Positions 1 to 24,288 of a stretch of 39,971 nt of DNA are shown here, one piece after another. The stretch comes from a virus (taxonomy: Duplodnaviria; Caudoviricetes): the IMG/VR virus record IMGVR_UViG_3300049927_000070, positions 1-39,971 of that record; one strand, given 5' to 3'. The translations under genes were made by a program, and so were the position numbers. The notes under the pieces are model-generated. The model saw only the letters and a program-made list of their open reading frames with translations. It was not told where the DNA came from and searched no databases. The number at the start of each line of letters is the position of its first letter. Positions within the stretch are counted from its first letter, which is position 1.

Positions 1-3000
1 CCCTTTTTCCCATAGGTCGCAGTCTTGATCAGCCCGGACGCTGTCTTGTACTTGGCCTTGTTTTCGCCGTCTAGCTTTACAGCTATCAGGCCTGTATCGG
101 TGATGGATGAGATGGTCCCGGACGCACCCTTGTAGTCGATCTTGTCGCCTTCGTAGACGATTTCACCGGTCTTGGAGTAGAAGAACTTCGAGCCGGAGGT
201 GGGGGCGCTGATTGTTGCGGTAGTGTTTGCAGAAATACCGTCAGACATGTATGGCGCGTCGTTTGTCTCCTTCCCGTTCTTGAACAGCTTCCATGTGGCA
301 TCCGGCTGCTTGACATAGTAGAACGCCGAAGAGCCGTAGGCGGACTCCTTCTTCATTGAGGTACCGGCAGGCTGGGCGTCAAGGAGCTCCTTGGAGATCG
401 TGTGGCCGGTGGTCACTCCTGTAAGCGATGGTGTACCGGTTTCTTCCGGGGATGCGGGAACAGATGACTCTGTTACGGTGTACTTGTCAGACAGGGACGC
501 CGGAACATTATCGAAAGCCGAATCCTCCTTGACCATTGGATCCAGTGCCCCGGTGTCCTTAGTCATTTTCTGCCAAGAGTTTGGCGCGGTCTTCTTGTAA
601 ACATGGTTACCGTTATGGAGCTCGGTACCGACAGGCAGCGCGGAGACGCCATCGCCCTTCATGACGTCGGTCAGCGTCTTTCCGATATATGAGGGAGACG
701 CTGTCTCGGCTGGAGTTACCGGGTGGTCACCCACCTTGCCGAGAACGTATGGGTCAAGGGCGTGGTCTTCCAGAGACGTGAAGTCTTTATCGTTGTATTC
801 CGTAAGGGCAGCAACACCGGTCGCGAGATAGATTCGGTTCCACGTGTTGTTTGCTACTTTCCTGTACGCAAACGAGTCGTCTAGCTTGCTGTGAATTTCG
901 GACCCGATGGGCAGAGAACTGAATTTGTCGGCGTGCATGACGTCAAGCAGCGGCTTGCCGGTGAGGTCGTCCGCAGCGGGTGCGTTCTCTGCGGGAAGCT
1001 CGGCCTTCAGCGGGAAGCCGTTCGACATCAGGGCAGCAATGTAGCTGGACCCAGTCGGCTCGAACCCCGTCAGTTCATCATACTCTTTGAAGGTTCCGTC
1101 TGACTGCTTGACCCAGTAAGGCTTGGAATATCCGCCGGACACCACGTGATTCGTGGTGATCTTGGTTCCGGTCGGGAAGTCCTTGAGCTCTTGTGTCGAC
1201 ATCGGCTTGAAGCCATCATCAGATTGAGTAGTCTCCGGCGCGTCAAGGAGCCCGTCAACATCCGTATCGATCAGGTGTTGAAGAGTTTTTGGTGGCAGTT
1301 GCACATGGTACGAACTTCCATCTGCCAGAGTCGATGTGCCTATTTCGTAGATCCCACCGTCAGGACCGGTCTGAGTCCACGAACCGTTATCTTTATGGAA
1401 AGAATATCCCTCAAGATTTGAGTCGGTGAGTATCGTCCCATCTGGGTAGCCGTCAAGAGTGCTTATCGAGGGGTCATGGACAATGTTCGGTTCCGCAACA
1501 GGCTCTGTCGGCATATTTGCCGCAGGCTCGTCGCTGACCGTGTAGCCTTCCGGTGCTTGGACATGGTAGTCGGACCCGTCCACGAGGGAGTTCGGGGACA
1601 GCCCTTGGTTCTGACCGGCTGGTCCCTGCTGGTCCCAGACATCGCCGTTCTTGGTGAAGGTGAACCCCTCAAGAGTAGGGTCCGTGAGTACAGTCCCGTC
1701 CGGGAGCTTGGCAAGATCTTCTTTGGTCGGGGAGTGGAGCATCGAAGGTATGGTGGCGGGGACCGTAGCCGGAGCACTCTCGTGCGTGCTCGATGCCTCG
1801 CCGGAAGTCTCCGGGAGATTGATTATCTTGTACGCCCCACCACTGTTTTGTAGTGCTTGATGGGTAGCTTCATCGGAATCCGCGAAAGCAAACGCCGGTT
1901 CACCAGTACTGGCCTTCGTCATCTGCCACTGGTTCTCGCCGATCTTCTTTTTGTAGAAGGAGGCGTCCGGACCCTTGTGTAGGGTTGTTCCGATCGGCAG
2001 CGCGGAGAGGTCTTCCTTGGTCAGTTGCGACGGACTCTTGCTAGCAAGGCTTTCAACTGGCGAGGTATTTGTAGGTGCAGATTCGTGGTCATCGTCTCCA
2101 GACGGGACGGAGACAATACTCCAGTCGTGTCCGTTCTGAGTCTGTGAGTACTCGACGGTTCCTTCGTGCATGTAAGTCCCGTTTTGTGTCTTCCACATGC
2201 CCTCGTTGTCGGCCTTGGTGAGGATGACGGTACTGCTGGCGGACTTGTTTTCGATGACAGTCCCGACCGGCAAGTCTGTGACGGCTGGCACACCAGAGTC
2301 GCCGAGAGACTTACCGACAAGGGATGCACCCTCTTCGGAGACGGGAGCGGGCTCTTGGACCGGTTCGGCGACAGGCTCGTGTACGGGCTCCGGTGCTGGT
2401 TCTTCGTGTGCCGGGGCCGGGGCCTGAGGTTCGTGGGCAGGCTCCTGCGGGGCAGCAGGGGTCTCGTTCTGTGGGGCGCTTGGTTCGCCCGGAACGTGCT
2501 TGTTTTCGGACTCAAGGGTGCTGGCCTTCTTGGGGCCGGAGGTGTGCCCGTCAGACCACTCGACCTTGACGGTCTTCTCGCCCTTGTAGATGCCCTTGAC
2601 GACACCTTTATCACCGCTGGAGTGTGTGACGGTGTCGCCGACGTGGATGAGCGAATTGTTGCTACCGACGATGAAGGCCGTGTGCGTGGCTGGATCGATG
2701 CCGTGGTCGCCTACCTTCAGGTCGGTCGGAAGGGTATCAACCTTCGGGGCATCTCCTTCGACCTTGGTGACGGCCTTGGACAGGTGGGTGGCCTTGGATC
2801 CGTCAGGATAGACAACCTTGACCGAGTTGGTGGACGGCAGGCCGATGAAGACCTTGCCGACACCCTTCTTGGGGTGGTGGATGAGGTCGTTGACTTTGAT
2901 CGTCGCGCCGTTGGCGTCGGTCTGGTCCTTACCCATGTCGGGGTAGGTGGCCTCGAAGTCCGGGTGGCTGGTCGGGGCTTCGGGTGCTACTTGCCCTTGG

Positions 3001-6000
3001 GCTGCTGGTTCTTCTTGCGGAGCGCTAGGAGTGCTTGAGTCTGTTGGTCCAGAGACGTTGTCTCCTCCGGAGTGGTCTTCTGTACCTGATCCTCCGTTCC
3101 CATGAACCTGCTCTGAATCCGCTCCTGTGGCGTGCCCTTCTGGGGATCCTTCGGTGTGGTCATTTTGTCCTCCTGTATCAAAGTTGTGTTCGGTCAGGTA
3201 GGGGGTCATGGTGACCTTCCAGCCTGTTTGTCCTGAAGTATTAGTATACTCTTCTTTGGCCGTAACTTTAAACTTGGTTCCGTGGGGCAACACAACTTCG
3301 GATTCGTTGGAGAAGCTGTGGGACCCGAGGGCGTTGTAGTCCAGCTTGTGTGCCTTGAATCCGGCAGGAAGATGGATCTCCATAAGTACGGGCGTGCGGT
3401 CCCCGTCGGAGTATGCAACCCACTCATGACCGATCTTGTCGGTTGTGGATGTTGATGTGTATCCCTTGTCGGAATAGATGCCACCGTTGACAAGATCATT
3501 GACGACTTGGTCGCGGGCATTCAGCCCACGATATACCGTGGTGTCGGCGGTCAGCGGGCTCTTGTCGAGGATCTGGTCTAGCGCCGCGATCTCGAAGGTA
3601 TGGTCGCTTGTCGCGTCCCCTCGTAGCGCGTTGTTGACGTCCAAGCTGCTGCTGATGAAGTCTGCGGCCTGCTCCTTCTCCGCAGTGTTGTATCCCGGAA
3701 AGAGGTGGTGAGGGTCATTTACGGAGGTATATCCGTAAGGATGTGTGACACCTTCGGCGAGCAGCGCCTTGTCGTGTGACGGCAATTTGTCGTAGAAGTT
3801 CTCGTCCGGAGTGTCCGGCATCGGCTTCACGATGTGGGTATCACCTACCGGCTTGAAGTCAGGCTTGTTCTTGAGCGTGCTCTGTACCATGCTCGTGGTT
3901 ATGGACATGCCGTCTTTATTGGAGTTCGGCGTAAATGTCATGAACCACTTGTTGGACTGCTTGTACAGGCTTCCGGAAGGACCGGAGAACATCGCACCGT
4001 TGGGTAGCGCCACTAGGTCAGCGTATTTGTACTCTTTCGGGGCAGCGTCCTCCGTGGGTGCCTCAACAGTGGGTGCTTCGGCTGGAGCCTCTGCCGGGGC
4101 AGGGCTCAGCTTCGCGGCGTGGGCGAGGATGTCCTCACGGCGTGCCACCAGCTTGTCCTTGAGCTCCGTGGAGGTCTTGTTGTCGAAGCCGATGGCGTCA
4201 ACGATCGCGTTGATCTTCTCGGGGGTCAGCGCCTCGACGTGCTTGGCCGAATCGGCAAGCTGCTGGTCGGTCATCTTGCCGAACAACGCCTTGGCTGTCA
4301 TGTTGCTGTGTGAGCCCAGTCCGCGCAGGGACTCCCACTCACCGACCTTGTTGCCGAACTGGTCGCCCTTGGGTTGTCCTTGGGCACGGAAGAGCAGGGC
4401 TCCGCCCGGATCAACGCGGACGGGGTTGCCGTGCTCGTCAGTGATGACGTTGTCATACCCGAGACCGGCGACATCCCAGTTGGCCAGCAGCGCGTCCATG
4501 GCGAAGCCGTCTTGAATCTTGGCCATGTACTCGGCGTCGTCTAGACGTGATTCGACGTCCTTCTGAGTACCGGACATCATCTGTGATGCAGTACCAAGTT
4601 TTCCGTTGCCGACATCGGCCAGCTTCAGGTTGGACGTCTGTATTCCAGCAGCCTTGTACAGGTCGTCGGCCAATACCTCGGAGCGGGCATGGTCGTCCGA
4701 CTGCGAAAGCTTGACATACCAGTCGTTGCCGTGCTGGTCGGTGTAGATGCCTCCGGCGTTGGAGCCCATCTGGGTTCCGGGCTTTTTTGTCCAGCCAGAG
4801 ATGTTGATAGGCTTACTTGAGTCCTCGACCTCAGACGTCGGTACAACGTCCATTCCAATAACTCTTTGGCCATTTTCGGTCGAGTCAGAGGTAATCTTGA
4901 ATTGGGTACCCGGAGGAAGAATAAACTCTTGGAGCCCCTTACTGGCATCCTTGTTTCTTACACCATTAGAGTCTATTCCTTGTACGCCTTTGGGAGCATT
5001 TATCTTATATACCGCACCGTTATTGGATTTGGAGGCATAGATGCCTGCCTGCTCCGCATTCATGGTAGTGGATACGAACCCTAGATCCGTTACGGTCTCC
5101 CCTATCTTGACGTCTCCGACAAGATGGTCTGGGTTGCCGCCACGGTAAATCGTTATGGCGTTGTTCAGGGGTTTCTGTTTTTCCAGTAGAGATTTGAGGT
5201 CTATATACTCAGACTCAGCCTTGACCGATGCATCGTTGGCTCGTAGACGACCATTTAGGTCAGTGGCACCGCTCATTACGTAATGGTCAATAGCTGAAAG
5301 TTCTGCGCTGGTTGGCGCTACTACGGTTTTTTGAGCTACCTCCATGGCCTTCTTTTCCGCAATCTTTGCGGAATCGTTGGCGTCTACATCTTCCTGATCC
5401 TTTTTGAGTTTAGCGATCAGTGCTGCGGAATCAGCGGATTTCTTGGCCTCTTCCTCCTCCATGTGCTTCTGAAGCTTGGCCAGAATATCGGTCATATCAT
5501 CTGGCTTGGGCTCGACAGGGGGCGGTGTGGACGAGGAGCCATCCTTGCGGTAAAGACCGTGGACCTGTCCGGCAACGATCGTCGGCGTACCGTGGACCGT
5601 CTTGTCGGAATTCAGCTTTTCGACAAGGATATTGATCGGGTTGACCGACATGACCTTGCCGAGGTTGTTTTCCTTGCCGTAGACGACGTGGTCGCCGGAC
5701 TTGAAGCTTTCGTTGTTCGGCTTGGACAGGTCGAAGGAGTGGCCGTGGAAGCCATCGCCGAAGGGGTTGGGGCCTGCGGTGGGTACGACAAGATTCTTGG
5801 GGCGGTAGATGGCGGCAATGTCCTTGCCCACAATGACGGACTCCTTGCCGTCCACGGAGAACCTGTTGCCCGGAACCTTCGAGCCGTCTTCAAGGGTCAG
5901 CTGCCCCTTGCCGACCCACGCACCGATGCTTCCGTCCTTGAGGACAACAACGTCGCCCTTCTTGAAGTTGGCGAGGCCGTTGATCTTGGCGAAGTTGTCG

Positions 6001-6974
6001 CCGAAGGGGTTGTCCGACGCCGGAGCCTTGTCAATATACATGTGCTCGTCCGGTGCCTTTTCAGGGGCAGGACCCATCATGTGATCAACTACATCGTTGC
6101 CCAGTTTGACGCCGTTGGTCTCGTTCGTCCACTCGTCTTCGCCGGTCTTGGTGAGCGGGATGATCGTGGAGTTGATTCCGGTGCTCTCGACCTTGGTCCC
6201 GACGGGAGATTTGGAGGCGTCGAACTTGTCCTGCGTGGTGTGGACACCCTTGACATCATCTACAAGGCCGCTCTTTGTCTCATGGCCCATGGCCTGCGAC
6301 TCATGGGTGTGGCCGTCGAGGATCGCCTGATCTAGCGTGTCGTGCTGCTTGATGGCGTAGTGCTGCGCGGACGGGAAGTGGTCCTTGCCCTTTTTGTCCG
6401 TGATGACGGCGTACTTGGGCTTACCGGTGTCCTTGTCGTGGACGACCTTCTTCACCACACCGTGGCCGGAGGTGGCGAACTTCTGGAAGTTGGCCTTGGT
6501 CGTCGGATCCTTGACGTTGTACGGGGACTTCTGGATCGAGGATGGAGTGTTTTCGTCGTGGTTCTTGATCGGGTAGACGACATCACCGGGCTTGAGGTCC
6601 GAGATCTTCGTCGTCAGCGGGGCGTTGGGGCTCTTCGAGGTGACGCCGTAGTGGGTAACCGTGTGCACGACCGTGACGCCGTGGTCGTTGATGTTGGGCG
6701 TGTTGGTGTGTCCACCCATGTGGTCAACATACTCAGGGTCAAGGTGCGCCTTGGCGTTGATGACCTCGACCTTGTTGTGCGGGACGTTGATGTGGTAGGT
6801 CTGTCCGGCGTGCTTGAACTCAACAATGATGTTGTTCCCTGCTTCGCCACGCGCGATGCCCGTGACGTCCGTACCCTCTTCGAGGGAGTGCCACTTGACG
6901 TGGGACCCCATCTTGATCCACTTACCCTTTTTGTCCCTAAGCTGGAGCTTTACGGCGGCGCTGCGATCGAACAT
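1..6974 (-). CDS. Giant polyvalent, probably virion-associated protein (at least 2324 aa, 3' end outside window): two ADP-ribosyltransferases, an atypical kinase, KOW/SH3-like and LPxGT repeat domains
   Basis: ATG at 6972-6974, 3 nt after the portal stop. Translates MFDRSAAVKLQLRDKKGKWIKMG... and the same frame still reads ...TASGLIKTATYGKK at positions 3-44. The ORF track lists no ORF closing in this frame, consistent with no stop before the edge. Confidence 0.9.
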   Translation of the reverse strand, partial: MFDRSAAVKLQLRDKKGKWIKMGSHVKWHSLEEGTDVTGIARGEAGNNIIVEFKHAGQTYHINVPHNKVEVINAKAHLDPEYVDHMGGHTNTPNINDHGVTVVHTVTHYGVTSKSPNAPLTTKISDLKPGDVVYPIKNHDENTPSSIQKSPYNVKDPTTKANFQKFATSGHGVVKKVVHDKDTGKPKYAVITDKKGKDHFPSAQHYAIKQHDTLDQAILDGHTHESQAMGHETKSGLVDDVKGVHTTQDKFDASKSPVGTKVESTGINSTIIPLTKTGEDEWTNETNGVKLGNDVVDHMMGPAPEKAPDEHMYIDKAPASDNPFGDNFAKINGLANFKKGDVVVLKDGSIGAWVGKGQLTLEDGSKVPGNRFSVDGKESVIVGKDIAAIYRPKNLVVPTAGPNPFGDGFHGHSFDLSKPNNESFKSGDHVVYGKENNLGKVMSVNPINILVEKLNSDKTVHGTPTIVAGQVHGLYRKDGSSSTPPPVEPKPDDMTDILAKLQKHMEEEEAKKSADSAALIAKLKKDQEDVDANDSAKIAEKKAMEVAQKTVVAPTSAELSAIDHYVMSGATDLNGRLRANDASVKAESEYIDLKSLLEKQKPLNNAITIYRGGNPDHLVGDVKIGETVTDLGFVSTTMNAEQAGIYASKSNNGAVYKINAPKGVQGIDSNGVRNKDASKGLQEFILPPGTQFKITSDSTENGQRVIGMDVVPTSEVEDSSKPINISGWTKKPGTQMGSNAGGIYTDQHGNDWYVKLSQSDDHARSEVLADDLYKAAGIQTSNLKLADVGNGKLGTASQMMSGTQKDVESRLDDAEYMAKIQDGFAMDALLANWDVAGLGYDNVITDEHGNPVRVDPGGALLFRAQGQPKGDQFGNKVGEWESLRGLGSHSNMTAKALFGKMTDQQLADSAKHVEALTPEKINAIVDAIGFDNKTSTELKDKLVARREDILAHAAKLSPAPAEAPAEAPTVEAPTEDAAPKEYKYADLVALPNGAMFSGPSGSLYKQSNKWFMTFTPNSNKDGMSITTSMVQSTLKNKPDFKPVGDTHIVKPMPDTPDENFYDKLPSHDKALLAEGVTHPYGYTSVNDPHHLFPGYNTAEKEQAADFISSSLDVNNALRGDATSDHTFEIAALDQILDKSPLTADTTVYRGLNARDQVVNDLVNGGIYSDKGYTSTSTTDKIGHEWVAYSDGDRTPVLMEIHLPAGFKAHKLDYNALGSHSFSNESEVVLPHGTKFKVTAKEEYTNTSGQTGWKVTMTPYLTEHNFDTGGQNDHTEGSPEGHATGADSEQVHGNGGSGTEDHSGGDNVSGPTDSSTPSAPQEEPAAQGQVAPEAPTSHPDFEATYPDMGKDQTDANGATIKVNDLIHHPKKGVGKVFIGLPSTNSVKVVYPDGSKATHLSKAVTKVEGDAPKVDTLPTDLKVGDHGIDPATHTAFIVGSNNSLIHVGDTVTHSSGDKGVVKGIYKGEKTVKVEWSDGHTSGPKKASTLESENKHVPGEPSAPQNETPAAPQEPAHEPQAPAPAHEEPAPEPVHEPVAEPVQEPAPVSEEGASLVGKSLGDSGVPAVTDLPVGTVIENKSASSTVILTKADNEGMWKTQNGTYMHEGTVEYSQTQNGHDWSIVSVPSGDDDHESAPTNTSPVESLASKSPSQLTKEDLSALPIGTTLHKGPDASFYKKKIGENQWQMTKASTGEPAFAFADSDEATHQALQNSGGAYKIINLPETSGEASSTHESAPATVPATIPSMLHSPTKEDLAKLPDGTVLTDPTLEGFTFTKNGDVWDQQGPAGQNQGLSPNSLVDGSDYHVQAPEGYTVSDEPAANMPTEPVAEPNIVHDPSISTLDGYPDGTILTDSNLEGYSFHKDNGSWTQTGPDGGIYEIGTSTLADGSSYHVQLPPKTLQHLIDTDVDGLLDAPETTQSDDGFKPMSTQELKDFPTGTKITTNHVVSGGYSKPYWVKQSDGTFKEYDELTGFEPTGSSYIAALMSNGFPLKAELPAENAPAADDLTGKPLLDVMHADKFSSLPIGSEIHSKLDDSFAYRKVANNTWNRIYLATGVAALTEYNDKDFTSLEDHALDPYVLGKVGDHPVTPAETASPSYIGKTLTDVMKGDGVSALPVGTELHNGNHVYKKTAPNSWQKMTKDTGALDPMVKEDSAFDNVPASLSDKYTVTESSVPASPEETGTPSLTGVTTGHTISKELLDAQPAGTSMKKESAYGSSAFYYVKQPDATWKLFKNGKETNDAPYMSDGISANTTATISAPTSGSKFFYSKTGEIVYEGDKIDYKGASGTISSITDTGLIAVKLDGENKAKYKTASGLIKTATYGKK
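290..2290 (-). repeat. Eight tandem protein-level repeats of about 90 aa (LPxGT...Kxxxx-W)
   Basis: LPVGTV (~2270), LPIGTT (~2000), LPDGTV (~1700), YPDGTI (~1445), FPTGTK (~1170), LPIGSE (~910), LPVGTE (~630), QPAGTS (~370). Isolated copies near 4000 and 6200. Confidence 0.8.
2987..3163 (-). CDS. Nested out-of-frame 58-aa protein directly after ART2 (candidate immunity/antitoxin)
   Basis: AGGAGG (3169-3174), 5 nt, then ATG (3163). Product MTTPKDPQKGTPQERIQSRFMGTEDQVQK...PKGK*, with mostly G/C-ending codons. The host frame here is a low-complexity G/S/D/E linker. Confidence 0.6.
   Translation of the reverse strand: MTTPKDPQKGTPQERIQSRFMGTEDQVQKTTPEETTSLDQQTQALLALRKKNQQPKGK
3200..3690 (-). 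other. ART domain 2 (VIP2-like, ExE type, likely arginine-specific) within the giant protein
   Basis: Translation: VNNALRG...TVYRGL (3522-3539)...GYTSTS...NESEVVLPHGTKFKVT (ESE at 3297-3305). Confidence 0.9.
4130..4800 (-). other. Atypical HopBF1/PI3K-PI4K-like kinase domain within the giant protein
   Basis: Translation: QMGSNAGGIY..WYVK..HARSEVLADDLY...FAMDALLANWDVAGLGYDNV...VRVDPGGALLFRAQG. This gives a Gly-rich loop, Lys, helix-C Glu, catalytic Asp/Asn and a DxG motif. Confidence 0.8.
4845..5310 (-). other. ART domain 1 (VIP2/C3-like, R-S-E class) within the giant protein
   Basis: Translation: ELSAIDHYVMSGATDLNGRLR...ITIYRG...GFVSTT...GLQEFILPPGTQFKIT. Boundaries approximate. Confidence 0.85.
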
Positions 6975-6977
6975 AGA

Positions 6978-8663
6978 CTATGGCTCCAGCAGTGTTGAAG
7001 GGGGCGGTGTACTAGTGTCTATTGTACCAGAATCTGCGGGTGTATCTGATGCTGGGGCCTCGTCGGGCGTGGCTGGAACCGGTGGTGTATCACCGCTTAG
7101 TGCATCATTGAGGGCCGCTGCGGAGCTCGGGTCGGACTGCTGAAGCTGTTCCTTGCGCAGGTCTGCCATGAGGTCCGGGATCAGGGTGGAGATCAGCTTC
7201 TCGGCCAGCGGCTCGGAGATGAGGCCCTTGGAGACGGCGAGGCGCTGGGCGATCTCAAGCTGCGTCGGAGCGTCGGAGATCGAGAAACCGTGGGCGCGTC
7301 GAAGCGCATCGGCGGAAAGGACCTGCTTGTCGAAGAGCAGCACGGAGGACTCGGACTTGGACGGCTTGGAGGTGACGGCGGACGGGTCATACCAGATGAC
7401 CGTGCGCATGATGTGCTCTTCCGGGAAGCCCAGTGCGCGGAGCGCAGGGCGAAGGAAGGCGACGGTGAGCATGTCGCAGAGCATGAGGATCATGGGCTCG
7501 ACGTGGGAGGAAAACATCGACTCCTCCACGATCTTGGCGTTGGCACCCTTGAGGTCCGCCATGCCGCCGACAATCTCCTTGGGCAGGTCGAGGCCGGAGA
7601 TGATGCGTCCCAGCACGGAGTCCATGTGCTTGGCCAGTTGCGGGTCCCATGACCGGGCGAAGCTGAAGTGCTGCATCTTCGAGCCCAGTTCCTCGGGTCC
7701 ACGGACCAAGAGGGGGACCACGGCGGACGCGCTGGAAGGGTCGCCGATGGGTGTGATCATGGCGTCGATGAACTGCTCTTCGAAGTCGTCCTGATCATCG
7801 GACGAAACGGCGTCGGGGTCGTCCGGATCCGTCATCTCGGCATCGTTGCCAGCGGCGTAGGACAGGCCGTCCGGGACGAAGAAGACACCGGCAGCGAGAC
7901 GGGACTTGGCAGCTGCCGAAGCCGTGCGGCTCATAAGCAGTAGTTCATCACAAAGATCGAGCACGCCACGGACGGAGGACTCGGCCTCGTTCGACCAGCG
8001 GGGGTGCGGACGCCAGAGGCGGGCGATGTATCCGTTGACCGGAATCTCGATATACTCGTCCTGTGTGGCGTCACGGGTGGGCTTGATGGACCAACCGCTC
8101 TTGGGGAGGGAGTTGCCTCGACCCTTTTTCTTGAGCGCGGGGGTGGCCACGATTTCATCGACGGAACGGATCTGATACTTGTCCGGTTCGCCGGTCGACC
8201 ACTTGGAGGGCTCACGAACGAGGTAGCACTCTCCGGCGACGAAGAGGTTCAGTGCGGCGTTGCGAAGGAGCCCCGCAGTCCCGCCACTGCCGGTCTCAAG
8301 GAGATAGAGCATCGAGGATGCCTTTTCCTTGTACTCGTCATCGAGGTGGTCGATGACTCCGACTCGGGCGGGGATCTGCGAGGAGTCTGCAATATATGCA
8401 GCGTAAATGTTTACACGAGAGAGGGTGTTTGCCATAATGGTGGCAGCGAACTTGATCTCACCGATGAGGTCGTAGAATTCCCACGCATCGTGCTGCCACT
8501 TGGAGATGTTGCGGCGACGGACGACGGCTTCAAGTTCGGTCGTGCTCTTGAGATCCACACGTGCCGCGCTGGCGGTAAGTGGTCGTGGCGTGTTGTACGG
8601 TACTGCGTCGAAAGGAACGTTCTCTTCAGGCGAGGACCCGCTTGGTCGTGTAAAAAGGGACAT
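6978..8663 (-). CDS. Portal protein
   Basis: 561 aa. N-terminal WQHDAWEFYDLIGEIKF and NLFVAGECYLV, RLWRPHPR, VPLLVRGP and IWYDPS motifs are typical of actinophage (cluster-B-like) portals. Confidence 0.85.
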   Translation of the reverse strand: MSLFTRPSGSSPEENVPFDAVPYNTPRPLTASAARVDLKSTTELEAVVRRRNISKWQHDAWEFYDLIGEIKFAATIMANTLSRVNIYAAYIADSSQIPARVGVIDHLDDEYKEKASSMLYLLETGSGGTAGLLRNAALNLFVAGECYLVREPSKWSTGEPDKYQIRSVDEIVATPALKKKGRGNSLPKSGWSIKPTRDATQDEYIEIPVNGYIARLWRPHPRWSNEAESSVRGVLDLCDELLLMSRTASAAAKSRLAAGVFFVPDGLSYAAGNDAEMTDPDDPDAVSSDDQDDFEEQFIDAMITPIGDPSSASAVVPLLVRGPEELGSKMQHFSFARSWDPQLAKHMDSVLGRIISGLDLPKEIVGGMADLKGANAKIVEESMFSSHVEPMILMLCDMLTVAFLRPALRALGFPEEHIMRTVIWYDPSAVTSKPSKSESSVLLFDKQVLSADALRRAHGFSISDAPTQLEIAQRLAVSKGLISEPLAEKLISTLIPDLMADLRKEQLQQSDPSSAAALNDALSGDTPPVPATPDEAPASDTPADSGTIDTSTPPPSTLLEP

Positions 8664-8710
8664 TGTCTACTCCGCTATCAGAAAAAACGTCTGTAGACAA
8701 TTTTATCATT

Positions 8711-9031
8711 CTATATACCCTTGTTTGCGGCTAGCCCTGTCAATGCTGATGCTGCAAGGATGGAAGAGAGATATGTGGCGGTATCCGGGCTGATTTTTCG
8801 TAGTGTAAAGACAAATGCAGCTGCCCAAATGGAGATACACCACGGACAATTGATGAGGTATGTGATTTTGCTCGCACGTCGCACCTTCGTCCGCTTGTCG
8901 ACCACGGCGGGGAACTTCTCCCGCAACATCAGGCGAAGATCTTCGGTGATGTAGTCCTCGGTCACCAGCTTGGTCAGTCGATACACCGATAGTGTATCTA
9001 GAATAAGGTAGACAAAAGTACTAAGAGACAT
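8711..9031 (-). CDS. DUF1360-like membrane protein
   Basis: YRLTKLVTEDYI...LINCPWCISIW motif and hydrophobic helices; lies just upstream of the portal. Confidence 0.75.
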   Translation of the reverse strand: MSLSTFVYLILDTLSVYRLTKLVTEDYITEDLRLMLREKFPAVVDKRTKVRRASKITYLINCPWCISIWAAAFVFTLRKISPDTATYLSSILAASALTGLAANKGI

Positions 9032-9218
9032 TCGTCTGCGTCCTCTGGAGATGGGCTTGGGTGTGCTTCATACACATCGAGTATCCACCCACGTTATAGA
9101 TGATCTCCTGCGGGGCGTGGACGCCCTCGCTGAGGCACTGGACACATCCGGTTTGACTGCCTCCGCCTTCGGGTTTGGTGACAGCGCCGTAAATGAGGCT
9201 GGGGATAGGGCTTGGCAT
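9021..9218 (-). CDS. Small putative Zn-binding protein
   Basis: CVQC...CMKH; overlaps the next gene in operon fashion. Confidence 0.6.
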   Translation of the reverse strand: MPSPIPSLIYGAVTKPEGGGSQTGCVQCLSEGVHAPQEIIYNVGGYSMCMKHTQAHLQRTQTNVS

Positions 9219-9224
9219 GGGTTC

Positions 9225-9563
9225 CTAGCTGGGTCGAACGTACTGGGCGTCGGTGAACAGGTGTAGGCCCCGCAGGGAGGCCCCACATCCACAGTTCGGT
9301 GCCCGCTTGATGTAATAGATCTCGAACTCCGTCTCGACCGTATAGCCTGTCTTGTTGGTCCCGCTGAAGCTGGTCAAGAGCTCCTTGATCAGCATTTCCG
9401 GGCCGTCAGGGGTGTCCTCGATGGCATAGAGGTAGTTGTCAGTGACGACGGCCCGGATTTCCTCGCCTAGAAGCGTAGCGTCCGTGGCGAAGTTCACAAC
9501 TGAGACGCTGGCCGGGAAGAGGTCTAGGTAGAGCAGGGTGGCCGGTTCTAGGTCCAGACTCAA
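9225..9563 (-). CDS. Hypothetical protein with CGCG motif
   Basis: 112 aa, 4-nt overlap with the upstream gene. Confidence 0.7.
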   Translation of the reverse strand: MSLDLEPATLLYLDLFPASVSVVNFATDATLLGEEIRAVVTDNYLYAIEDTPDGPEMLIKELLTSFSGTNKTGYTVETEFEIYYIKRAPNCGCGASLRGLHLFTDAQYVRPS

Positions 9564-10072
9564 GAGGCCTTGTCCCGCTTCTCCAAGCGCTGGGCAATGG
9601 CACGACGGGAGACGCCACAGGCCACCTTGAGCGTGTTCAAAGAGGCACCCCGCTCCTTGTGGTAATGCAGGAGTTCTTCGAGCTCCAGAGCGGCTTCACG
9701 GGCCGGGGAGTCGGAGTCGGTGAACCGGCGCACCTTGGAGGCTTCGCGGGCCAAGACGTACATCTTTGTCGACTCTTCGTCCGAAAGCTCGTAGCGCAGG
9801 TAGATGGGCTTCACCTGATCATCGATGGATTTGGGCAGCTGCTCGGTGACGGGCAGCGGTGAGTTCTCGGGAACCTTGTTCTCCCAGATCTGCACGATCG
9901 AGCGTGAGACGCCCAGAGGCTGTGAAATGGCACGAAGCGGCCACTTGTTTTTGCGCAGCGAGGCGACGTATTCGTAGAAGGCTGGGCGGTCGGTGTCTCG
10001 GAGCCGCTTCAACTGCGCTACGGTAGCATCGGAGAGCTCCGGTAGGGTTGATTTTTCTGTCATGGTATTCAT
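9560..10072 (-). CDS. Tandem helix-turn-helix DNA-binding protein
   Basis: WPLRAISQPLGVSRSIVQIW and ASLNTLKVACGVSRRAIAQRL; AAGGAG SD. Confidence 0.75.
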   Translation of the reverse strand: MNTMTEKSTLPELSDATVAQLKRLRDTDRPAFYEYVASLRKNKWPLRAISQPLGVSRSIVQIWENKVPENSPLPVTEQLPKSIDDQVKPIYLRYELSDEESTKMYVLAREASKVRRFTDSDSPAREAALELEELLHYHKERGASLNTLKVACGVSRRAIAQRLEKRDKAS

Positions 10073-10079
10073 GCTCCTT

Positions 10080-10107
10080 AGTATATCAGGTTATTGCGTG
10101 TTGTCAA
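10080..10107 (-). promoter_or_regulatory. Sigma-70/SigA-type promoter
   Basis: TTGACA-N16-TATACT upstream of the HTH gene. Confidence 0.7.
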
Positions 10108-10891
10108 GGTTTGACAACGCTTCGGCGACCCAGTCGGGTTTGAGGGTGACGGTATGTTTGACGAGCCTGCCGGTACCCTGATCCAGTCCGTAAACATGGG
10201 CGGGGGTCCTGTCCTCGTCCTCGTGCCGGAAGGACCCGAACATCGCCATGTGGTAGTGGCCATGAAACACAAGACGGGGCGTGACGACGTCGGTGACGCG
10301 TTGCAGGGTCCTGCGGTGCTCGTTACACATGAACACCATGTCACCGCCGAAGTGTCGGGAGGCCTCGGCCTGTCCGTAGGGGTCGTCGGTCACCGAGTTG
10401 GGGGCGGTGAGGGGGCTGTCGTGGGCGAGAAGGATGTCCACCTTACCTCCAGCGATCGCAGCCTGTATGTCATCCTCGGTGATCAGTTCCTCGGGCCACC
10501 AGCTGTGTCCTTTGCGCCGGAAGGGCTTGTCGATGGACGCTGCCCCTCCGAGCGCGAGGGCACTGTAACCCTCCCATGTGAAGCGGAAGCCCCGTGGGAG
10601 GTGGAAGATGTGGTCCCGTACCTTGCGGGTACCGTCCTCTTGAACCTTCTTGGCGTAGAGGCGCGGAAAATTCTCGTGGTTGCCGTCGATGAAATACAGG
10701 ACAATGTCGTGCTCGGCCAGACGCTTCTCCAGCTTGATGAGATAGGGCTTGTCGTCTTCCCAGATACCGAAGTCGCCCAGCTGGATGATCGTCTTGATGC
10801 CCTCGCGGACGGCGTAGTCGATGACATTCAACGCCTGTGGGGCGTTTCCATGCCAGTCGCCTGCGAGCACGACATTGCCTGTGAGTTCCAT
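10091..10891 (-). CDS. Calcineurin-like metallophosphoesterase
   Basis: GDWHGN, GDFG, DGNHE, AHDSP and HGHYH motifs. Confidence 0.9.
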   Translation of the reverse strand: MELTGNVVLAGDWHGNAPQALNVIDYAVREGIKTIIQLGDFGIWEDDKPYLIKLEKRLAEHDIVLYFIDGNHENFPRLYAKKVQEDGTRKVRDHIFHLPRGFRFTWEGYSALALGGAASIDKPFRRKGHSWWPEELITEDDIQAAIAGGKVDILLAHDSPLTAPNSVTDDPYGQAEASRHFGGDMVFMCNEHRRTLQRVTDVVTPRLVFHGHYHMAMFGSFRHEDEDRTPAHVYGLDQGTGRLVKHTVTLKPDWVAEALSNLDNTQ

Positions 10892-10894
10892 GTG

Positions 10895-12391
10895 TTAGAT
10901 GCTTCCGTTGCGTTCGAGGATACCGGTGGTGCGCTTGACGTTGGCGCGGACATCGGCGAAGGAGTACGTCTTGAGGAACTTGCCGTTCTCCCAGACGGGC
11001 TGGATGACGGAGTTCTTGATCTGGTCGTCCGTGGCCTTCTGGATGAGGTACAGGTTTCCGTCTGCCATGTGGGCGACCGCCAATCGACCCGTGGCCGACT
11101 TCTTGGTGCCGTCGTCCGTCTTCGGGTCCTTGAAGATGTTCCGGCCTTCGCCGTTGACCTCAACGTAGGTGGCCTTGACGGCGGAGCCGAAGGTGTCGCG
11201 GGTCACCATCTGGTAGGAGTAGGATCCGATACCGGCCACCCAGTTGGTGGAGGCGAAGCCCTTGGCCTTGAGACGGGAGTTGATGTCCTCAATGCGCTCC
11301 TTGTACATACCGTCGCCGTAGATTAGGCCGATATGAGAATCTAGTTCCAGATATCCAGATTCGTTCTCAGTACCGCCGAAGGTGTCCCACAGGAGCTCGA
11401 TAGCGCCCAACTGCTCTGGGTCAGTCTCATTCCGGTATTCTCCTGCGAGGGCTGTTCCGCAGATGATGTCAGCCGGGTCGCCGGAGTCCGGGCGGATGAC
11501 TAACTTACCGTCGCGGGCCAAGATCTCGTCCTTGAGGACGGGAAGGTATTCGGTGAGTACCTTGAAGAGGTCCCACGTGTCGGCCACGATGGACAGGATC
11601 CCGGTCGGGAAGGTCTTGAGCAGGCGGCGGAAGGTCTCGATCTCGTCTTCCTTACCACCGGCACACATCACGGAGTGCTCCGTGGCAGGGACGGAGGCGG
11701 CGATCAGGCCGTTGTCCTCGCCGGGGTAGTAGTAATTGACCCACGGCACAGCCGGTACAGCGTCGGAGCCGAAGAAGGAGGTCAGGTGTGCGGCACCGGA
11801 GGATGCTGCGGCCTCGCGGTTGACCTGTCCACGGTAGGAGAAGTCGTGCAGCTGGAAGTCGACGGCACCGGGGGCACCACCAGTCTCGCGAGCGGCCTTC
11901 TCGAAGGAGCGGCGCAGAGCCCATGCAAGGGTTGCCACGGTGGACGTGTGCCAGATGCCAGCGGAGAGGTCGGACTCAAGGTAGTTGACCAGCCATGCGA
12001 AGTCCTTGTGGGTGGACTTGATCAGGATGGACGGGACGCCGATGGGGACAAGCGTACCTTCCGGGACCTGAGAGAACTGGATCGGCAGGTAGCCGAGGTC
12101 GTGCAGGTCCTCAAGCTCGGTCAGGCTGTAGCCGGGGGAGACGAAGGTCTCGGTGTTCTTCCTGAACTCCTCGATGACCGTGTCCTTGTCGGCAGCAAAG
12201 AACGCCTCGTAGGATTCGGTGAGGTCCGTGAGCCATGCCTGAAGGCCGAAGTTCACGACGTGGTTGACGCCGTCGACGCGGGACTTGCGGTTGGTGTAGT
12301 TGGACTCTACGTGCTCCAAGCCCTCGGGGTACATGTCTTTGTGAGACAATTTGTAACTATCCGTGCGGAGAAGCGGGTTAATCGTAAACAT
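10895..12391 (-). CDS. nadV: Nicotinamide phosphoribosyltransferase-family protein (probably the NARP1 Namat)
   Basis: TDSYKLSH, LHDFSYRG, SVPATEHSVM, SIVADTWD, VIRPDSGDP, LIYGDG, TRDTFGSAVKAT and KDPKTDDGTKKSATG motifs. Confidence 0.92.
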   Translation of the reverse strand: MFTINPLLRTDSYKLSHKDMYPEGLEHVESNYTNRKSRVDGVNHVVNFGLQAWLTDLTESYEAFFAADKDTVIEEFRKNTETFVSPGYSLTELEDLHDLGYLPIQFSQVPEGTLVPIGVPSILIKSTHKDFAWLVNYLESDLSAGIWHTSTVATLAWALRRSFEKAARETGGAPGAVDFQLHDFSYRGQVNREAAASSGAAHLTSFFGSDAVPAVPWVNYYYPGEDNGLIAASVPATEHSVMCAGGKEDEIETFRRLLKTFPTGILSIVADTWDLFKVLTEYLPVLKDEILARDGKLVIRPDSGDPADIICGTALAGEYRNETDPEQLGAIELLWDTFGGTENESGYLELDSHIGLIYGDGMYKERIEDINSRLKAKGFASTNWVAGIGSYSYQMVTRDTFGSAVKATYVEVNGEGRNIFKDPKTDDGTKKSATGRLAVAHMADGNLYLIQKATDDQIKNSVIQPVWENGKFLKTYSFADVRANVKRTTGILERNGSI

Positions 12392-12425
12392 TGTTCCCTT
12401 TCAATTGTCTTATGTCGTTGGTCTA

Positions 12426-12454
12426 AATGTATCTATGTATCTTTAGATTGTCAA
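12426..12454 (-). promoter_or_regulatory. SigA-type promoter for the NAMPT-like gene
   Basis: TTGACA-N17-TACATT; the spacer contains a GATACATAGATACAT repeat. Confidence 0.6.
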
Positions 12455-13350
12455 ATCGAGATACGGTCAAGCAGCGGACGGATGATGTCGATGCGCCGGA
12501 ACACGTCCCTCGACAACTGGTCGCCGAAGTCTCCGTGGTCATCCAGCAGGCGCAGCGGGGCGTAGGAGTTGGTGGTGAAGATGTTGACGAAACTCTGGGG
12601 CAGGTTCCGCAGGGCATCCTTGGAGAAGATGCCGTGCGAGACATAGAGGTCCAGCTTGACGCCTTCCGGAACGACTCCGGCCAGCCCGAGGAAGGTCCCT
12701 CCGGCGTCGCAGATGTCATCCACTATCAGAAAGTGTCCGGTCTCCGGGCGCTCGATGCTGAAGCCCGAGAGCTTGCCGGTCTCGAAGTCTCGCTGCTTCT
12801 CGGCAGTGTAGAGTGGGATCCCGAAGGCACCGGCGACGCCGGAAGCCCTGCCGTGTGCACCCTTGTCCGGGGCGATGATACCGTCGTACTTGTTCGGCAT
12901 GACGATCCCGGCATTGCGGGTGTTCAGGAGCTCTTCGGGGTAGACGACGGTGAGTATGGCGTCATCGTACTGACACATTTTCAGCTGCTCCACGATGGTC
13001 GAGGAGTGCGGGTCGTAGGTGATGACCTGATCGATCCACAGTTCGCCGATGAAGTCCGCGTAGACGTTGGCCCCGAAGGGCCTCCCTCGGTCGGCACGTG
13101 CGCCGGGGAGGTAGGGGGCGATGAGAACGGATTTGGAATTTTCGATGAGGACGTAGTTAGCCCACATGGCCAGTTCGAACAGGTCGTCGTGCATGGAGTA
13201 AGCATCGGGCTGGAAGATGGCGATCTCGACAGGTTCGAGTTCGCGCTGCTCCTCACGCTTGATGTGCTTCTCGCCTGCCGGGAAAGTGAAGCCTGAGAGG
13301 GCGGAGTTGATGATCTCGCCGTTGGACGTGCGGGCCTTGAATGTAATCAT
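12451..13350 (-). CDS. prs: Ribose-phosphate pyrophosphokinase-family protein (probably the NARP1 Adps)
   Basis: FPAGEKH, PYLPGARADR, DPHS, IAPDKGA, KQRDFETG, IVDDICDAGGTF and LYVSHGIFS motifs. Start moved to ATG 13350 because the longer start overlaps the next gene. Confidence 0.9.
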   Translation of the reverse strand: MITFKARTSNGEIINSALSGFTFPAGEKHIKREEQRELEPVEIAIFQPDAYSMHDDLFELAMWANYVLIENSKSVLIAPYLPGARADRGRPFGANVYADFIGELWIDQVITYDPHSSTIVEQLKMCQYDDAILTVVYPEELLNTRNAGIVMPNKYDGIIAPDKGAHGRASGVAGAFGIPLYTAEKQRDFETGKLSGFSIERPETGHFLIVDDICDAGGTFLGLAGVVPEGVKLDLYVSHGIFSKDALRNLPQSFVNIFTTNSYAPLRLLDDHGDFGDQLSRDVFRRIDIIRPLLDRISI

Positions 13351-13356
13351 GAAGTA

Positions 13357-13385
13357 AGCATATCCTTGTATATTTATTCTGTCAA
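13357..13385 (-). promoter_or_regulatory. Leaderless SigA-type promoter for the PRPS-like gene
   Basis: TTGACA-N17-TATGCT-N6-ATG. Confidence 0.7.
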
Positions 13386-13630
13386 AATCCGGTACGGTTT
13401 CGCGGGACGAAGTCGCATTCAAGCTTGTAGGTCTGCGCAAGAAGGTCCCCGCGACCCAGCATCATCCATATCTGGGTCGCGTGGACCAAATCGTGCGCGT
13501 TCTGGAATGCAGGGGCGAGGCGGATCTCTTCGCCTTTGCCCATGGTGTTTCCGTTGGGGGCCTTGACTACCCAGTGGTATTTGCCGTTCTTGAAGTACAC
13601 ACGGCCTTTGAGGTCTGGAGTGATAAGCAT
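13382..13630 (-). CDS. Small protein, possibly YegP/DUF1508-like
   Basis: GKYHWVVKAPNGNTMGKGE motif; preceded by TTGACA-N16-TATGAT-N6-ATG (13637-13664). Confidence 0.6.
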   Translation of the reverse strand: MLITPDLKGRVYFKNGKYHWVVKAPNGNTMGKGEEIRLAPAFQNAHDLVHATQIWMMLGRGDLLAQTYKLECDFVPRNRTGF

Positions 13631-13647: not shown

Positions 13648-13767
13648 CTATTCGAAAATGTCAACCGTTCCGGTCGCGGGGTCGACGTCGTAGAAGGCTC
13701 GACCGATGAAGGGCGGGCGGTAGATGTCTGCGGGGTCCAGCTGCGGGCGCTCGGTGGGCTCAGTCAT
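13648..13767 (-). CDS. 39-aa hypothetical protein
   Basis: [39 protein letters not shown]; fills the gap and overlaps the SLOG stop. Below the ORF-track cutoff. Confidence 0.5.
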
Positions 13768-14134
13768 CGCTGGTCTCCGTGAACCGGAAGGTCGGGATCA
13801 AGGCCTTCTCCGCGAGATTGGCGGTCATGGTTGCGCCCTTGGAGCCGTTCTTGATGAAGGCGAAGCAGACGTCCGCTCCGAGGGATACCATTTCGGCATT
13901 GCGGACGAACCCTGCCTGCTTGCCGAGGGACCAGTCTGCGGGGTGGGATTCGATCGGGAAGCCCTGCCGGTCCCAGACCTCCTCGGCAATGGCGTCGGCC
14001 CCGGTGCGGCAGGACCCAGACACGAGGACGATGTCGTCGGGGTGTCCAGCGACGATCCATGCGCCCCTGAGGACTTCGGTGATCTTGTTGATGTCAGTCC
14101 AGTCGCGGGAGCCCGTGATGAGGATGCGCGTCAT
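13760..14134 (-). CDS. SLOG/YspA-like (DUF2493) nucleotide-binding protein
   Basis: [32 protein letters not shown] and SKGA motifs. Confidence 0.85.
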
Positions 14135-23685: not shown

Positions 23686-23766
23686 TGTTTCACCCTGCCC
23701 TTGCAACCCACTAGACAGGGGTGTATATTTAGAGGTGTAGGCAGGACAACCCCACAGGAGCACACC

Positions 23767-24260: not shown

Positions 24261-24288
24261 GTAATTCTTGCAAAGGACACCACCCAAC

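What the first reader, a model, noticed from the sequence alone, without database searches (positions are those of the whole stretch)
1..6974. Giant portal-linked polyvalent protein carrying two ARTs and a HopBF1-like kinase, absent from the ORF track
Seen: one frame is open for at least 2324 codons from 3 nt after the portal stop. It contains ART1, a kinase, ART2, several KOW/SH3-like units (KPGDVV, KKGDVV, KSGDHVV, KVNDLI, HVGDTV, YEGDKI) and tandem repeats. Established: the slot after the portal often holds MuF/minor head proteins, and phage polyvalent proteins with ART domains are thought to be packaged and injected. Inference: this is an injected multi-enzyme effector that both ADP-ribosylates and phosphorylates host targets. 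No MuF motif is visible in the part inside the window.
Basis: partly seen in the sequence, partly recalled or inferred. Interest (0 to 1): 0.8.

Follow-up and report, generated by a model that had tools for sequence, protein, structure and literature searches.

The report
Giant phage kinase-ADP-ribosyltransferase head cargo
A soil phage gene right behind the portal encodes a giant modular protein with two ADP-ribosyltransferase domains and a kinase fold; complete relatives end in a predicted DarT-like (DNA-modifying) domain, so it is likely a head-loaded, injected toolkit for disarming the host.

Summary
The open frame is real: window 3-6974 (-), 2324 codons, starting 3 nt after the portal stop and cut by the contig end. 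The phage resembles Arthrobacter phages Mimi, Racecar and Atuin (portal 50-52% identical).

Both ADP-ribosyltransferase (ART) domains are Alt/VIP2-type. ART2 is canonical (R-STS-ExE). ART1 has Leu at -2 and GC3 0.48, so it is likely a recent cassette. The kinase fold holds, but its nearest structure is CtkA (Z 17.6), then CotH, PI4KII and HipA; HopBF1 ranks 40th (Z 8.2).

Ten complete orthologs (2118-3313 aa) swap ART and Nudix cassettes, yet all keep the kinase and a C-terminal domain missing from the window. That domain models closest to DarT (Z 9.6, middling) with near-invariant His, Arg and Glu. The kinase family is large (4741 clusters), sits among head genes (39 of 51 loci), and is fused to MuF or portal elsewhere.

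Packaging, injection, activity and targets are inferred, not shown. It works like a polyvalent protein but fails that class's ART and kinase signatures. The scan noted similar head polyproteins on other genomes; my look-ups found none with this DarT-like end. Verdict: new variant of a known kind.

The parts
3..6974 (-). Giant modular post-portal protein, first 2324 aa (3'-truncated; about 3010 aa expected from orthologs)
   Evidence: P0002 aligns up to the window edge and runs on for 689 aa
6909..6974 (-). N-terminal basic module with the R-D-x-x-G-(R/K)-(W/F) motif (aa 1-22); candidate capsid-loading or ejection signal (inferred)
   Evidence: 82 hits in the first 320 aa of 150 kinase-bearing proteins (47,638 residues) against 6 in the 280,963 residues beyond; follows MuF in 12 of 15 MuF fusions; module shared with Atuin gp71 and Mimi gp77
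5535..6014 (-). Pair of small beta units, aa 321-480, KOW/SH3-like by eye; optional cassette
   Evidence: present in the window and 5 of 10 orthologs; no significant Pfam hit
4830..5324 (-). ART1, Alt/VIP2-type, aa 551-715: R611, S635 (S-T-T), E683 with Leu at -2; likely a recently gained cassette
   Evidence: PF03496 E 9.5e-16; Leu at -2 in 2 of 70 ART domains against Glu in 64; GC3 0.48; no ortholog has it at this place
4101..4814 (-). CtkA/HipA/PI4KII-like atypical kinase, aa 721-958; invariant K755, E766, N832, D834, N842, D855
   Evidence: alignment of 62, numbering; pLDDT 96.5; CtkA Z 17.6, rmsd 3.2, 214 aligned; Foldseek E 3e-7
3189..3707 (-). ART2, canonical Alt/VIP2 arginine-type ART, aa 1090-1262: R1149, S1174 (S-T-S), E1224-x-E1226
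   Evidence: PF03496 E 1.4e-15; PDB 1ojq and Vis hits; motif
2475..2939 (-). Conserved pair of KOW/SH3-like units, aa 1346-1500
   Evidence: in 10 of 10 orthologs and in Atuin gp71 and Mimi gp77; KOW4_SPT5 E 0.003, below cut-off
204..2288 (-). Eight divergent ~65-aa units with invariant Pro and Gly and near-invariant Lys and Trp (aa 1563-2257); a ninth at 3855-4043; no known family
   Evidence: no convincing PHROG, PDB or Atlas match
3..179 (-). Last KOW/SH3-like unit before the contig end (aa 2266-2324); in orthologs about 680-690 aa follow, ending in the DarT-like domain
   Evidence: a relative's contig in run X2 runs 2140 nt past the end
6978..8663 (-). Portal protein, 561 aa
   Evidence: phrog_776 E 4e-89; 50-52% identical to portals of Arthrobacter phages Mimi, Racecar, Talia1610 and Atuin
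10080..10107 (-). Near-consensus sigma-70-type promoter-like site upstream of the gene run that holds the portal and the giant gene
   Evidence: 11 of 12 matches with extended -10; no terminator-like site on the - strand in 1-10200; consensus match only

Best explanation
[quoted passage not shown] SHOWN: position behind the portal; folds and catalytic residues of ART2 and the kinase; cassette shuffling among orthologs; MuF and portal fusions of the same kinase in other phages; a DarT-like fold at the C-terminus of all 10 complete orthologs. INFERRED, step by step: (1) it is made late with the head genes; (2) its basic N-terminal module replaces MuF as the loading or ejection handle; (3) it leaves the head unfolded or cut at Pro/Ala/Glu-rich linkers; (4) the CtkA/HipA-like kinase phosphorylates host proteins, most likely defence or translation proteins; (5) ART2 puts ADP-ribose on arginines of host proteins, as T4 Alt does; (6) ART1 is an accessory with altered acceptor specificity or NADase-like activity; (7) the DarT-like end modifies single-stranded nucleic acid of the host or of rival elements; (8) the KOW/SH3-like and Pro-Gly units act as spacers or target-binding modules. 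The kinase and DarT-like domain are the fixed core; ARTs and Nudix, and UvrD in more distant phages, are exchangeable payload.
For: Starts 3 nt after the portal stop; in Atuin, Mimi and DSL-LC01 the equivalent giant lies between portal and protease/capsid genes. Kinase loci: 39 of 51 non-redundant viral loci hold a head-gene homolog, 30 of them a portal. Four kinase ORFs begin with a MuF-like head-morphogenesis domain and one with a portal; MuF occurs in 15 of the 150 best kinase hits, and 133 of the 150 are 1000 aa or longer. Catalytic residues are invariant in 62 of 62 kinase domains. Kinase and C-terminal domain are in 10 of 10 orthologs, an R-S-E ART in 8 of 10, Nudix in 4 of 10. C-terminal domain: the four best VIA rows are all DarT (Z 9.6, 8.8, 8.0, 7.9), the two best Foldseek rows too; His 65 of 66, Arg 66, Tyr 58, Glu 66. 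Precedent: Alt is packaged and injected (PMC5512222 section 9); about 44% of phage ARTs lie in contexts suggesting packaging (PMC9503650); T7 kinase disarms defences (PMC13645617).
Against: No virion proteomics or activity data were found for any member (searches; finds). The protein has no MuF, and none was found in 5 related records, 2 of them at least 90% complete. It lacks the hydrophobic-Ala-(Ala/Ser) candidate cleavage motif that punctuates neighbouring head proteins, so processing is unexplained. The DarT-like domain is outside the window and inferred from orthologs. Its match is middling (rmsd 4.3, Foldseek E 0.006) and below the Pfam DarT cut-off. Complete genome G007 carries it with no Macro or NADAR hit, which is awkward for a DNA toxin made late. 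Atuin gp71 and Mimi gp77 have neither kinase nor DarT-like domain, so neither is universal in the wider lineage. The kinase's structural neighbours include lipid kinases (PI4KII and MavQ, Z 13.6), so a protein substrate is not established.
Confidence: 0.68

Rival explanations
1. The protein is made late and acts in the producing cell, bound to procapsids or free, to shield portal, terminase and capsid from defences that sense them or to shut the host down before lysis. It is not delivered to the next cell.
For: Head-module position fits late expression just as well; PMC9503650 raises this alternative for head-linked ARTs. No MuF and no candidate cleavage motif in the protein.
Against: Direct MuF and portal fusions of the same kinase. 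The N-terminal motif sits just behind MuF and the candidate cleavage motif in those fusions, where a matured internal cargo would begin.
Confidence: 0.17
2. It is a virion-surface or structural accessory: the repeats and SH3-like units bind the cell envelope or matrix, and the kinase acts on envelope lipid (for example phosphatidylinositol of actinobacteria; recalled) or another small substrate.
For: More than half the chain is small repeats and Pro/Ala/Glu linkers with net charge -106; lipid kinases PI4KII and MavQ score Z 13.6.
Against: The same kinase occurs in 8 records of phages of Proteobacteria. ARTs, Nudix and UvrD need cytoplasmic substrates. The protein kinase CtkA scores higher (Z 17.6).
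Confidence: 0.07
3. It is delivered, but its main targets are rival phages or defence-signalling NAD+ chemistry rather than host take-over: the DarT-like end blocks co-infecting phage DNA, and ART1 and Nudix consume or reshape NAD+/ADP-ribose.
For: DarT's known target is phage DNA (PMC11543638). ART1 lacks the -2 Glu. Nudix is a frequent partner (34 of 150). A PRPP-synthetase-like and NAMPT-like pair and a SLOG gene lie 4-7 kb upstream.
Against: ART2 keeps the arginine-type ExE seen in 64 of 70 ART domains. Nothing here shows how the phage's own DNA would be spared.
Confidence: 0.08

Closest known systems
Polyvalent proteins of phages (Iyer et al. 2017, PMC5512222)
   Same: Over 2000 aa, several unrelated enzyme domains, encoded among virion genes, domains also fused to MuF elsewhere, mosaic among orthologs.
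   Different: [quoted passage not shown] Its kinase has lost the C-terminal subdomain; this one keeps a helical C-lobe. DarT and HipA are not mentioned in its main text.
T4 Alt and MuF-ART fusions (Alt/VIP2 clade; PMC5512222, PMC9503650)
   Same: R-S-E ART of PF03496 encoded with head genes; ART2 has the full R, STS, ExE set.
   Different: No MuF; ARTs are optional cassettes in a ~3000-aa chain; ART1 has Leu at -2.
CtkA (H. pylori, PDB 3akj), HipA/HipT, CotH and PI4KII-like atypical kinases
   Same: Fold (Z 17.6, 13.0/11.1, 14.4, 13.6) and the Lys, Glu, Asp-x-Asn, Asp catalytic set; HipA_C hits 18 of 62 family members at E up to 0.5, best E 2e-7.
   Different: Embedded in phage head proteins, no antitoxin partner seen, 11-16% identity, no Pfam model above cut-off.
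HopBF1 (PDB 6pwd)
   Same: Kinase superfamily fold (Z 8.2, 145 aligned).
   Different: Rank 40 of the structural list, far below CtkA; no sequence match in three PDB searches.
DarT1 and DarT2 DNA ADP-ribosyltransferase toxins
   Same: Nearest fold of the orthologs' C-terminal domain; conserved His, Arg, Tyr, Glu in the same order as DarT2 H13, R51, Y71, E160 (PMC9967889).
   Different: C-terminal domain of a phage head-module protein, not a bacterial toxin-antitoxin gene; no Macro or NADAR partner in complete G007; below Pfam cut-off; residue equivalence inferred from order only.
Arthrobacter phage Atuin gp71 and Mimi gp77 (annotated 'DNA helicase')
   Same: Same slot behind a 50-52% identical portal, same N-terminal module and SH3-like pair; Atuin also has an R-S-E ART.
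   Different: Payload is a UvrD helicase; no kinase or DarT-like domain.
T7 kinase gp0.7 (PMC13645617)
   Same: Phage kinase that disarms host defences: the functional model for the kinase here.
   Different: An early-expressed, non-virion kinase (recalled); no relationship was tested here.

Membership tests
Polyvalent proteins (Iyer 2017) | Large multidomain polypeptide (often over 2000 aa) with disparate enzyme domains | tested here: met
   2324+ aa; orthologs 2118-3313 aa
Polyvalent proteins (Iyer 2017) | Encoded near late/virion genes | tested here: met
   3 nt behind the portal; definition in section 32
Polyvalent proteins (Iyer 2017) | Its domains occur fused to MuF in other phage proteins | tested here: met
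   kinase with MuF in 4 loci and 15 of 150 proteins
Polyvalent proteins (Iyer 2017) | ART of the H-Y-D (Tox-ART-HYD2) type; Alt/VIP2 stated to be absent | tested here: not met
   both window ARTs are R-S-E PF03496; statement in section 9
Polyvalent proteins (Iyer 2017) | Kinase lacking the C-terminal subdomain | tested here: not met
   model has helices 159-236 and aligns 214 residues with CtkA; description
Polyvalent proteins (Iyer 2017) | Carries domains of the 131-domain inventory (LPD and others) | tested here: inconclusive
   no such Pfam hit; the paper's FTP files were not seen
Polyvalent proteins (Iyer 2017) | Packaged and injected | not testable with these tools
   needs virion proteomics
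Alt/VIP2 ART (ART2) | PF03496 above cut-off with R, S-T-S and E-x-E | tested here: met
   57.6 bits against 23.4; R1149, S1174, E1224/E1226
Alt/VIP2 ART (ART1) | PF03496 above cut-off with Arg, Ser and catalytic Glu | tested here: met
   58.1 bits; R611, S635, E683
Alt/VIP2 ART (ART1) | Glu or Gln at -2 of the catalytic Glu (recalled specificity rule) | tested here: not met
   Leu; shared with 1 other of 70 domains, in P0029
HopBF1 kinases | HopBF1 is the nearest structural or sequence neighbour | tested here: not met
   listed at rank 40, Z 8.2, against CtkA Z 17.6
CtkA/HipA/PI4KII-like atypical kinases | Fold | tested here: met
   Z 17.6, rmsd 3.2, 214 aligned; Foldseek E 3e-7, TMq 0.64
CtkA/HipA/PI4KII-like atypical kinases | Catalytic Lys, Glu, Asp, Asn, Asp | tested here: met
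   invariant in 62 of 62; roles assigned from recalled kinase motif order
CtkA/HipA/PI4KII-like atypical kinases | Protein (not lipid) substrate | not testable with these tools
   neighbours include both kinds
DarT (C-terminal domain of orthologs) | DarT fold | tested here: met
   top four VIA rows are DarT, Z 9.6 (rmsd 4.3, 159 aligned) to 7.9; next family Z 6.6; middling scores
DarT (C-terminal domain of orthologs) | Pfam DarT score above the curated cut-off | tested here: not met
   1 of 27 members hits, E 9e-4; 20 bits against 22.5, in 1 of 5 records
DarT (C-terminal domain of orthologs) | Catalytic Arg and Glu with NAD-binding His and Tyr | tested here: inconclusive
   His 65, Arg 66, Tyr 58, Glu 66 of 66, in DarT2 order; no residue-level superposition seen
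DarT (C-terminal domain of orthologs) | Cognate Macro (DarG) or NADAR antitoxin gene beside it | tested here: not met
   no Macro or NADAR in G007 (complete), G008 or G006; G002 has one Macro gene about 70 kb away and no NADAR
DarT (C-terminal domain of orthologs) | ADP-ribosylates ssDNA bases | not testable with these tools
   needs an in vitro assay
MuF-fused effectors | N-terminal MuF domain | tested here: not met
   none in the protein or in 5 related records
KOW/SH3/Tudor-like barrels | Profile or structural match of the small units | tested here: inconclusive
   only sub-threshold hits; no model made

The most novel reading that the evidence does not exclude
A widespread lineage of actinobacterial phages has turned DarT, a bacterial anti-phage DNA toxin fold, into a virion-delivered weapon. 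It is fixed at the end of a giant head cargo with an unnamed CtkA/HipA-like kinase, needs no DarG or NADAR antitoxin, and is loaded by a short MuF-independent N-terminal signal onto which ART, Nudix and helicase cassettes are swapped. The phage would ADP-ribosylate host or rival DNA and phosphorylate defences before expressing a single gene.
Probability: 0.3. Interest if true: 0.85.

Novelty: new variant of a known kind. Interest (0 to 1): 0.62.

Why it matters
Injected phage ARTs and phage anti-defence kinases are known separately. Here an unnamed kinase family of at least 4741 sequence clusters, with no Pfam model above cut-off, is tied to head modules across actinobacterial and proteobacterial phages. 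In 65 of the 150 closest carriers it is paired with a DarT-like domain. If these are virion-delivered, phosphorylation and nucleic-acid ADP-ribosylation become pre-expression weapons, the reverse of DarT's known role. Cultured carriers of the kinase on harmless hosts (Gordonia terrae phages Forza and GodonK, Pseudomonas putida phages Jeremy and Dolphis) make that part directly testable. The conserved N-terminal module is a candidate capsid-loading signal that works without MuF.

Tried and rejected
HopBF1 as nearest relative: rejected.

Sequence searches of the PDB with the kinase (single sequence and two profiles) and with the C-terminal profile gave only noise. NCBIfam named no domain of the window protein above cut-off.

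DNA tandem repeats: none. The ~65-aa units matched nothing convincing in PHROGs, the PDB or the Atlas; the HMM that counts them was built from them. The Atlas look-up of the C-terminal domain returned unnamed clusters only. A search for stand-alone homologs of that domain gave 2 proteins on short contigs.

Extending the contig: G000 is the window itself; no near-copy in the genome index; run X1's contig ends at the same place. No RNA holder was listed.

The candidate head-protease motif from finding e1-9909546 is present in the portal and neighbouring head proteins but absent from the window's giant protein and from 7 of 9 close orthologs scanned; the 2 single hits are unconvincing.

A linked Macro or NADAR antitoxin was not found. 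No complex prediction was run, because no binding claim is made. A profile test of the KOW/SH3-like units was not completed, so that label stays tentative. No tRNA genes in the window.
Full report
OBSERVATION. The - strand frame 3..6974 is open for 2324 codons and runs off the contig; the contig is the whole record G000. It starts 3 nt after the stop of a 561-aa portal (phrog_776 E 4e-89). By composition such a frame has a chance of about 1e-27, and its GC3 is 0.70. Contigs of run X1 (possibly the source sample, so not independent) match without differences or gaps over four pieces that cover 1-8700 except 2888-2945. A contig of a related strain in run X2 runs 2140 nt beyond the end; read by eye, its first 10 codons are in frame and match 7 of 10 residues of ortholog P0002. 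Pfam finds two ADPrib_exo_Tox domains, E about 1e-15 each. TRF finds no DNA tandem repeat. There are 9 divergent ~65-aa units that match no library searched. The KOW/SH3 label rests on sub-threshold hits only.

WHAT PHAGE. The nearest named portals are those of Arthrobacter phages Mimi, Racecar, Talia1610 and Atuin (50-52%, genomes about 193 kb). Upstream gene order (PRPP-synthetase-like, NAMPT-like, metallophosphoesterase, HTH, small genes, portal, giant) matches Atuin. In Atuin and Mimi the giant shares the N-terminal module and the SH3-like pair but carries a UvrD helicase, with an ART in Atuin only. The host is therefore inferred to be an actinobacterium; both runs are labelled soil metagenome.

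ORTHOLOGS. Portal and N-terminal searches gave 10 complete orthologs of 2118-3313 aa: P0002-P0009, L007 and L009. I left out L008 (truncated), L011 (ends in the portal), L012 (same as P0006) and L010 (a frame-split near-copy of P0005). All 10 have the N-terminal module, the kinase, the SH3-like pair, 4-12 repeat units and the C-terminal domain. An R-S-E ART is in 8 of 10, Nudix in 4 of 10, and ART1 ahead of the kinase in none. P0002 is 86% identical at the window's last domain and continues for 689 aa, so the full protein is likely about 3010 aa. ART1 has GC3 0.48 against 0.79-0.84 in the conserved N-terminal, SH3-like and kinase parts (ART2 0.69, repeats 0.65), which fits recent gain.

ARTs. 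ART2 has R1149, S-T-S at 1174 and E1224-x-E1226. ART1 has R611, S-T-T at 635 and E683 with Leu at -2. Of 70 ART domains in 49 of 169 proteins, 64 have Glu at -2 and 2 have Leu: ART1 and its closest relative in P0029 (42%). By the recalled rule that ExE marks arginine specificity, ART2 is Alt-like and ART1 is altered.

KINASE. Residues 721-960 find 4741 clusters at E up to 1e-3 and 903 at 1e-30. Only the best 150 were examined: 133 are 1000 aa or longer. In 62 aligned domains K755, E766, N832, D834, N842 and D855 are invariant. The model (pLDDT 96.5) matches CtkA best (Foldseek E 3e-7; Z 17.6, rmsd 3.2, 214 aligned), then CotH 14.4, PI4KII and MavQ 13.6, HipA 13.0; HopBF1 is rank 40 at Z 8.2. 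HipA_C hits 18 of 62 members at E up to 0.5. Twenty GenBank phage records hold it; all are annotated hypothetical or ADP-ribosyltransferase. BFVD shows portal-, ART- and Nudix-named carriers.

CONTEXT OF THE KINASE. Of 399 viral stretches, 80 were kept; 29 were dropped as near-duplicates or for stops. Of the remaining 51, 39 hold a homolog of an actinophage portal, terminase, protease, capsid or MuF within up to 10 kb, and 30 hold a portal. The references were actinophage only. Of the 12 loci without a mark, 7 kinase ORFs were scanned in PHROGs and one is a portal-kinase-ART fusion; four other ORFs are MuF-kinase-ART fusions. The R-D/G-x-x-G-(R/K/Q)-(W/F) motif that opens the window protein occurs 82 times in the first 320 residues of the 150 proteins and 6 times in the 280,963 residues beyond. 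In 12 of 15 MuF fusions it follows MuF. In 25 of 72 non-MuF proteins a hydrophobic-Ala-(Ala/Ser) motif precedes it within 30 residues (background 0.8%). The motif was defined from these proteins, so the enrichment is partly by selection. The alanine motif came as a lead from finding e1-9909546; it is absent from the window protein, which begins at the module itself.

THE MISSING END. The last ~260 aa of the orthologs form a conserved domain (model pLDDT 80.7). Its best structural matches are DarT1 (Z 9.6, rmsd 4.3, 159 aligned) and three DarT2 chains (8.8, 8.0, 7.9), then Tpt1 (6.6), SopF and CopC/OspC3 (about 5). Foldseek ranks DarT first but only at E 0.006. Pfam DarT hits 1 of 27 members and stays under cut-off. 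The domain is in 65 of the 150 kinase carriers, 57 of them at the C-terminus and none with MuF; His, Arg, Tyr and Glu are kept in 65, 66, 58 and 66 of 66. This is the order of DarT2 H13, R51, Y71 and E160 (PMC9967889); equivalence is inferred. Against a plain DarT reading: no Macro or NADAR in complete G007; G002 has one distant Macro. Among GenBank phages only DSL-LC01 has the domain, and its paper does not mention DarT, kinase or ADP-ribosylation.

MECHANISM. The best reading (0.68) is a late-made, head-loaded, injected cargo. Its fixed core (kinase, DarT-like end) and swappable payload (ARTs, Nudix, UvrD) would modify host targets before phage genes are expressed. Folds, residues, context and shuffling are shown; loading, injection, processing, activity and targets are inferred. 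Rivals: action in the producing cell only (0.17); targets being rival phages or NAD+ signalling (0.08); surface or lipid-directed accessory (0.07).

COMPARISON AND NOVELTY. It works like the polyvalent proteins of Iyer et al. 2017 and meets their size, context and MuF-fusion features. It fails their ART type (the paper says Alt/VIP2 ARTs are not found in genuine members) and their truncated kinase. Alt/VIP2-MuF fusions are described (PMC9503650), where a DarT-like viral family is noted only for arthropod viruses in the passages seen. Ten literature searches found no account of a CtkA/HipA-like kinase or a DarT-like domain in phage head cargo. The library lacks most subscription papers, and the 2017 paper's FTP domain files, which could list these domains, were not seen.

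PAPERS SEEN. PMC5512222: sections 5, 9 and 32 whole, plus passages. PMC9503650, PMC7824862, PMC13728456, PMC11543638, PMC9967889, PMC13645617 and PMC10611076: passages. PMC9503643: a term search with no hits. No supplements were read.

VERDICT. Real; new variant of a known kind; interest 0.62. The surprise lies less in the two ARTs than in the unnamed kinase family and the DarT-like end, which is inferred from orthologs and untested.

Noticed in passing
window 10895-13440 (-): Adjacent PRPP-synthetase-like (329 aa) and NAMPT-like (498 aa) genes, with a YAcAr SLOG gene at 13760-14134. The pair resembles the NAD+ reconstitution pathway NARP1 (pathway described; resemblance of its enzymes to Prs and Nampt is recalled). 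Conserved upstream of the portal in relatives and in Atuin and Mimi.
   Followed up: partly
L009:13352-14011 (+), also in P0014 and the kinase ORF of L049: An extra cassette in the giant with a PARP-like or H/R-Y-type ART look by eye; no Pfam or PHROG hit.
   Followed up: partly
L001:2729-3244 (Atuin gp54): Annotated 'ADP-ribosyltransferase' but scores as a Macro domain, an eraser rather than a writer; a similar Macro gene lies in G002 (L093).
   Followed up: partly
L001:12693-22034 and L002:12727-20856: Atuin gp71 and Mimi gp77, annotated 'DNA helicase', are the same head-cargo scaffold with a UvrD payload; Atuin's also has an unannotated R-S-E ART.
   Followed up: yes
L010:6989-14333: The giant is split in two frames near aa 1190, while near-identical P0005 is intact; probably an assembly error.
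   Followed up: partly
L004:18099-22730 (A3Wally gp87); L012:19670-21671: Head-region proteins carry many hydrophobic-Ala-(Ala/Ser) motifs (12 in gp87, 4 in the L012 protein), in line with finding e1-9909546.
   Followed up: partly
L003:10169-11569 (DSL-LC01): A DUF3626 protein sits directly behind the portal, ahead of the kinase and DarT-like giant.
   Followed up: no
P0010 (3416 aa), P0017 (7004 aa): Carriers with five kinase copies, or with two kinases, UvrD, several ARTs, Nudix and the DarT-like domain in one chain.
   Followed up: no
window 23000-24000: GC skew flips sign and coding switches to the + strand for a few kb (SprT-like gene at 24268-24810, DUF6011 at 27148-27507); typical of a divergent early region.
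   Followed up: no
window 21253-22509 (-): A 418-aa ORF with no Pfam or PHROG match; DUF4406 (18949-19314), DUF3307 (14933-15313) and DUF7178 (33913-34545) genes are also present.
   Followed up: no
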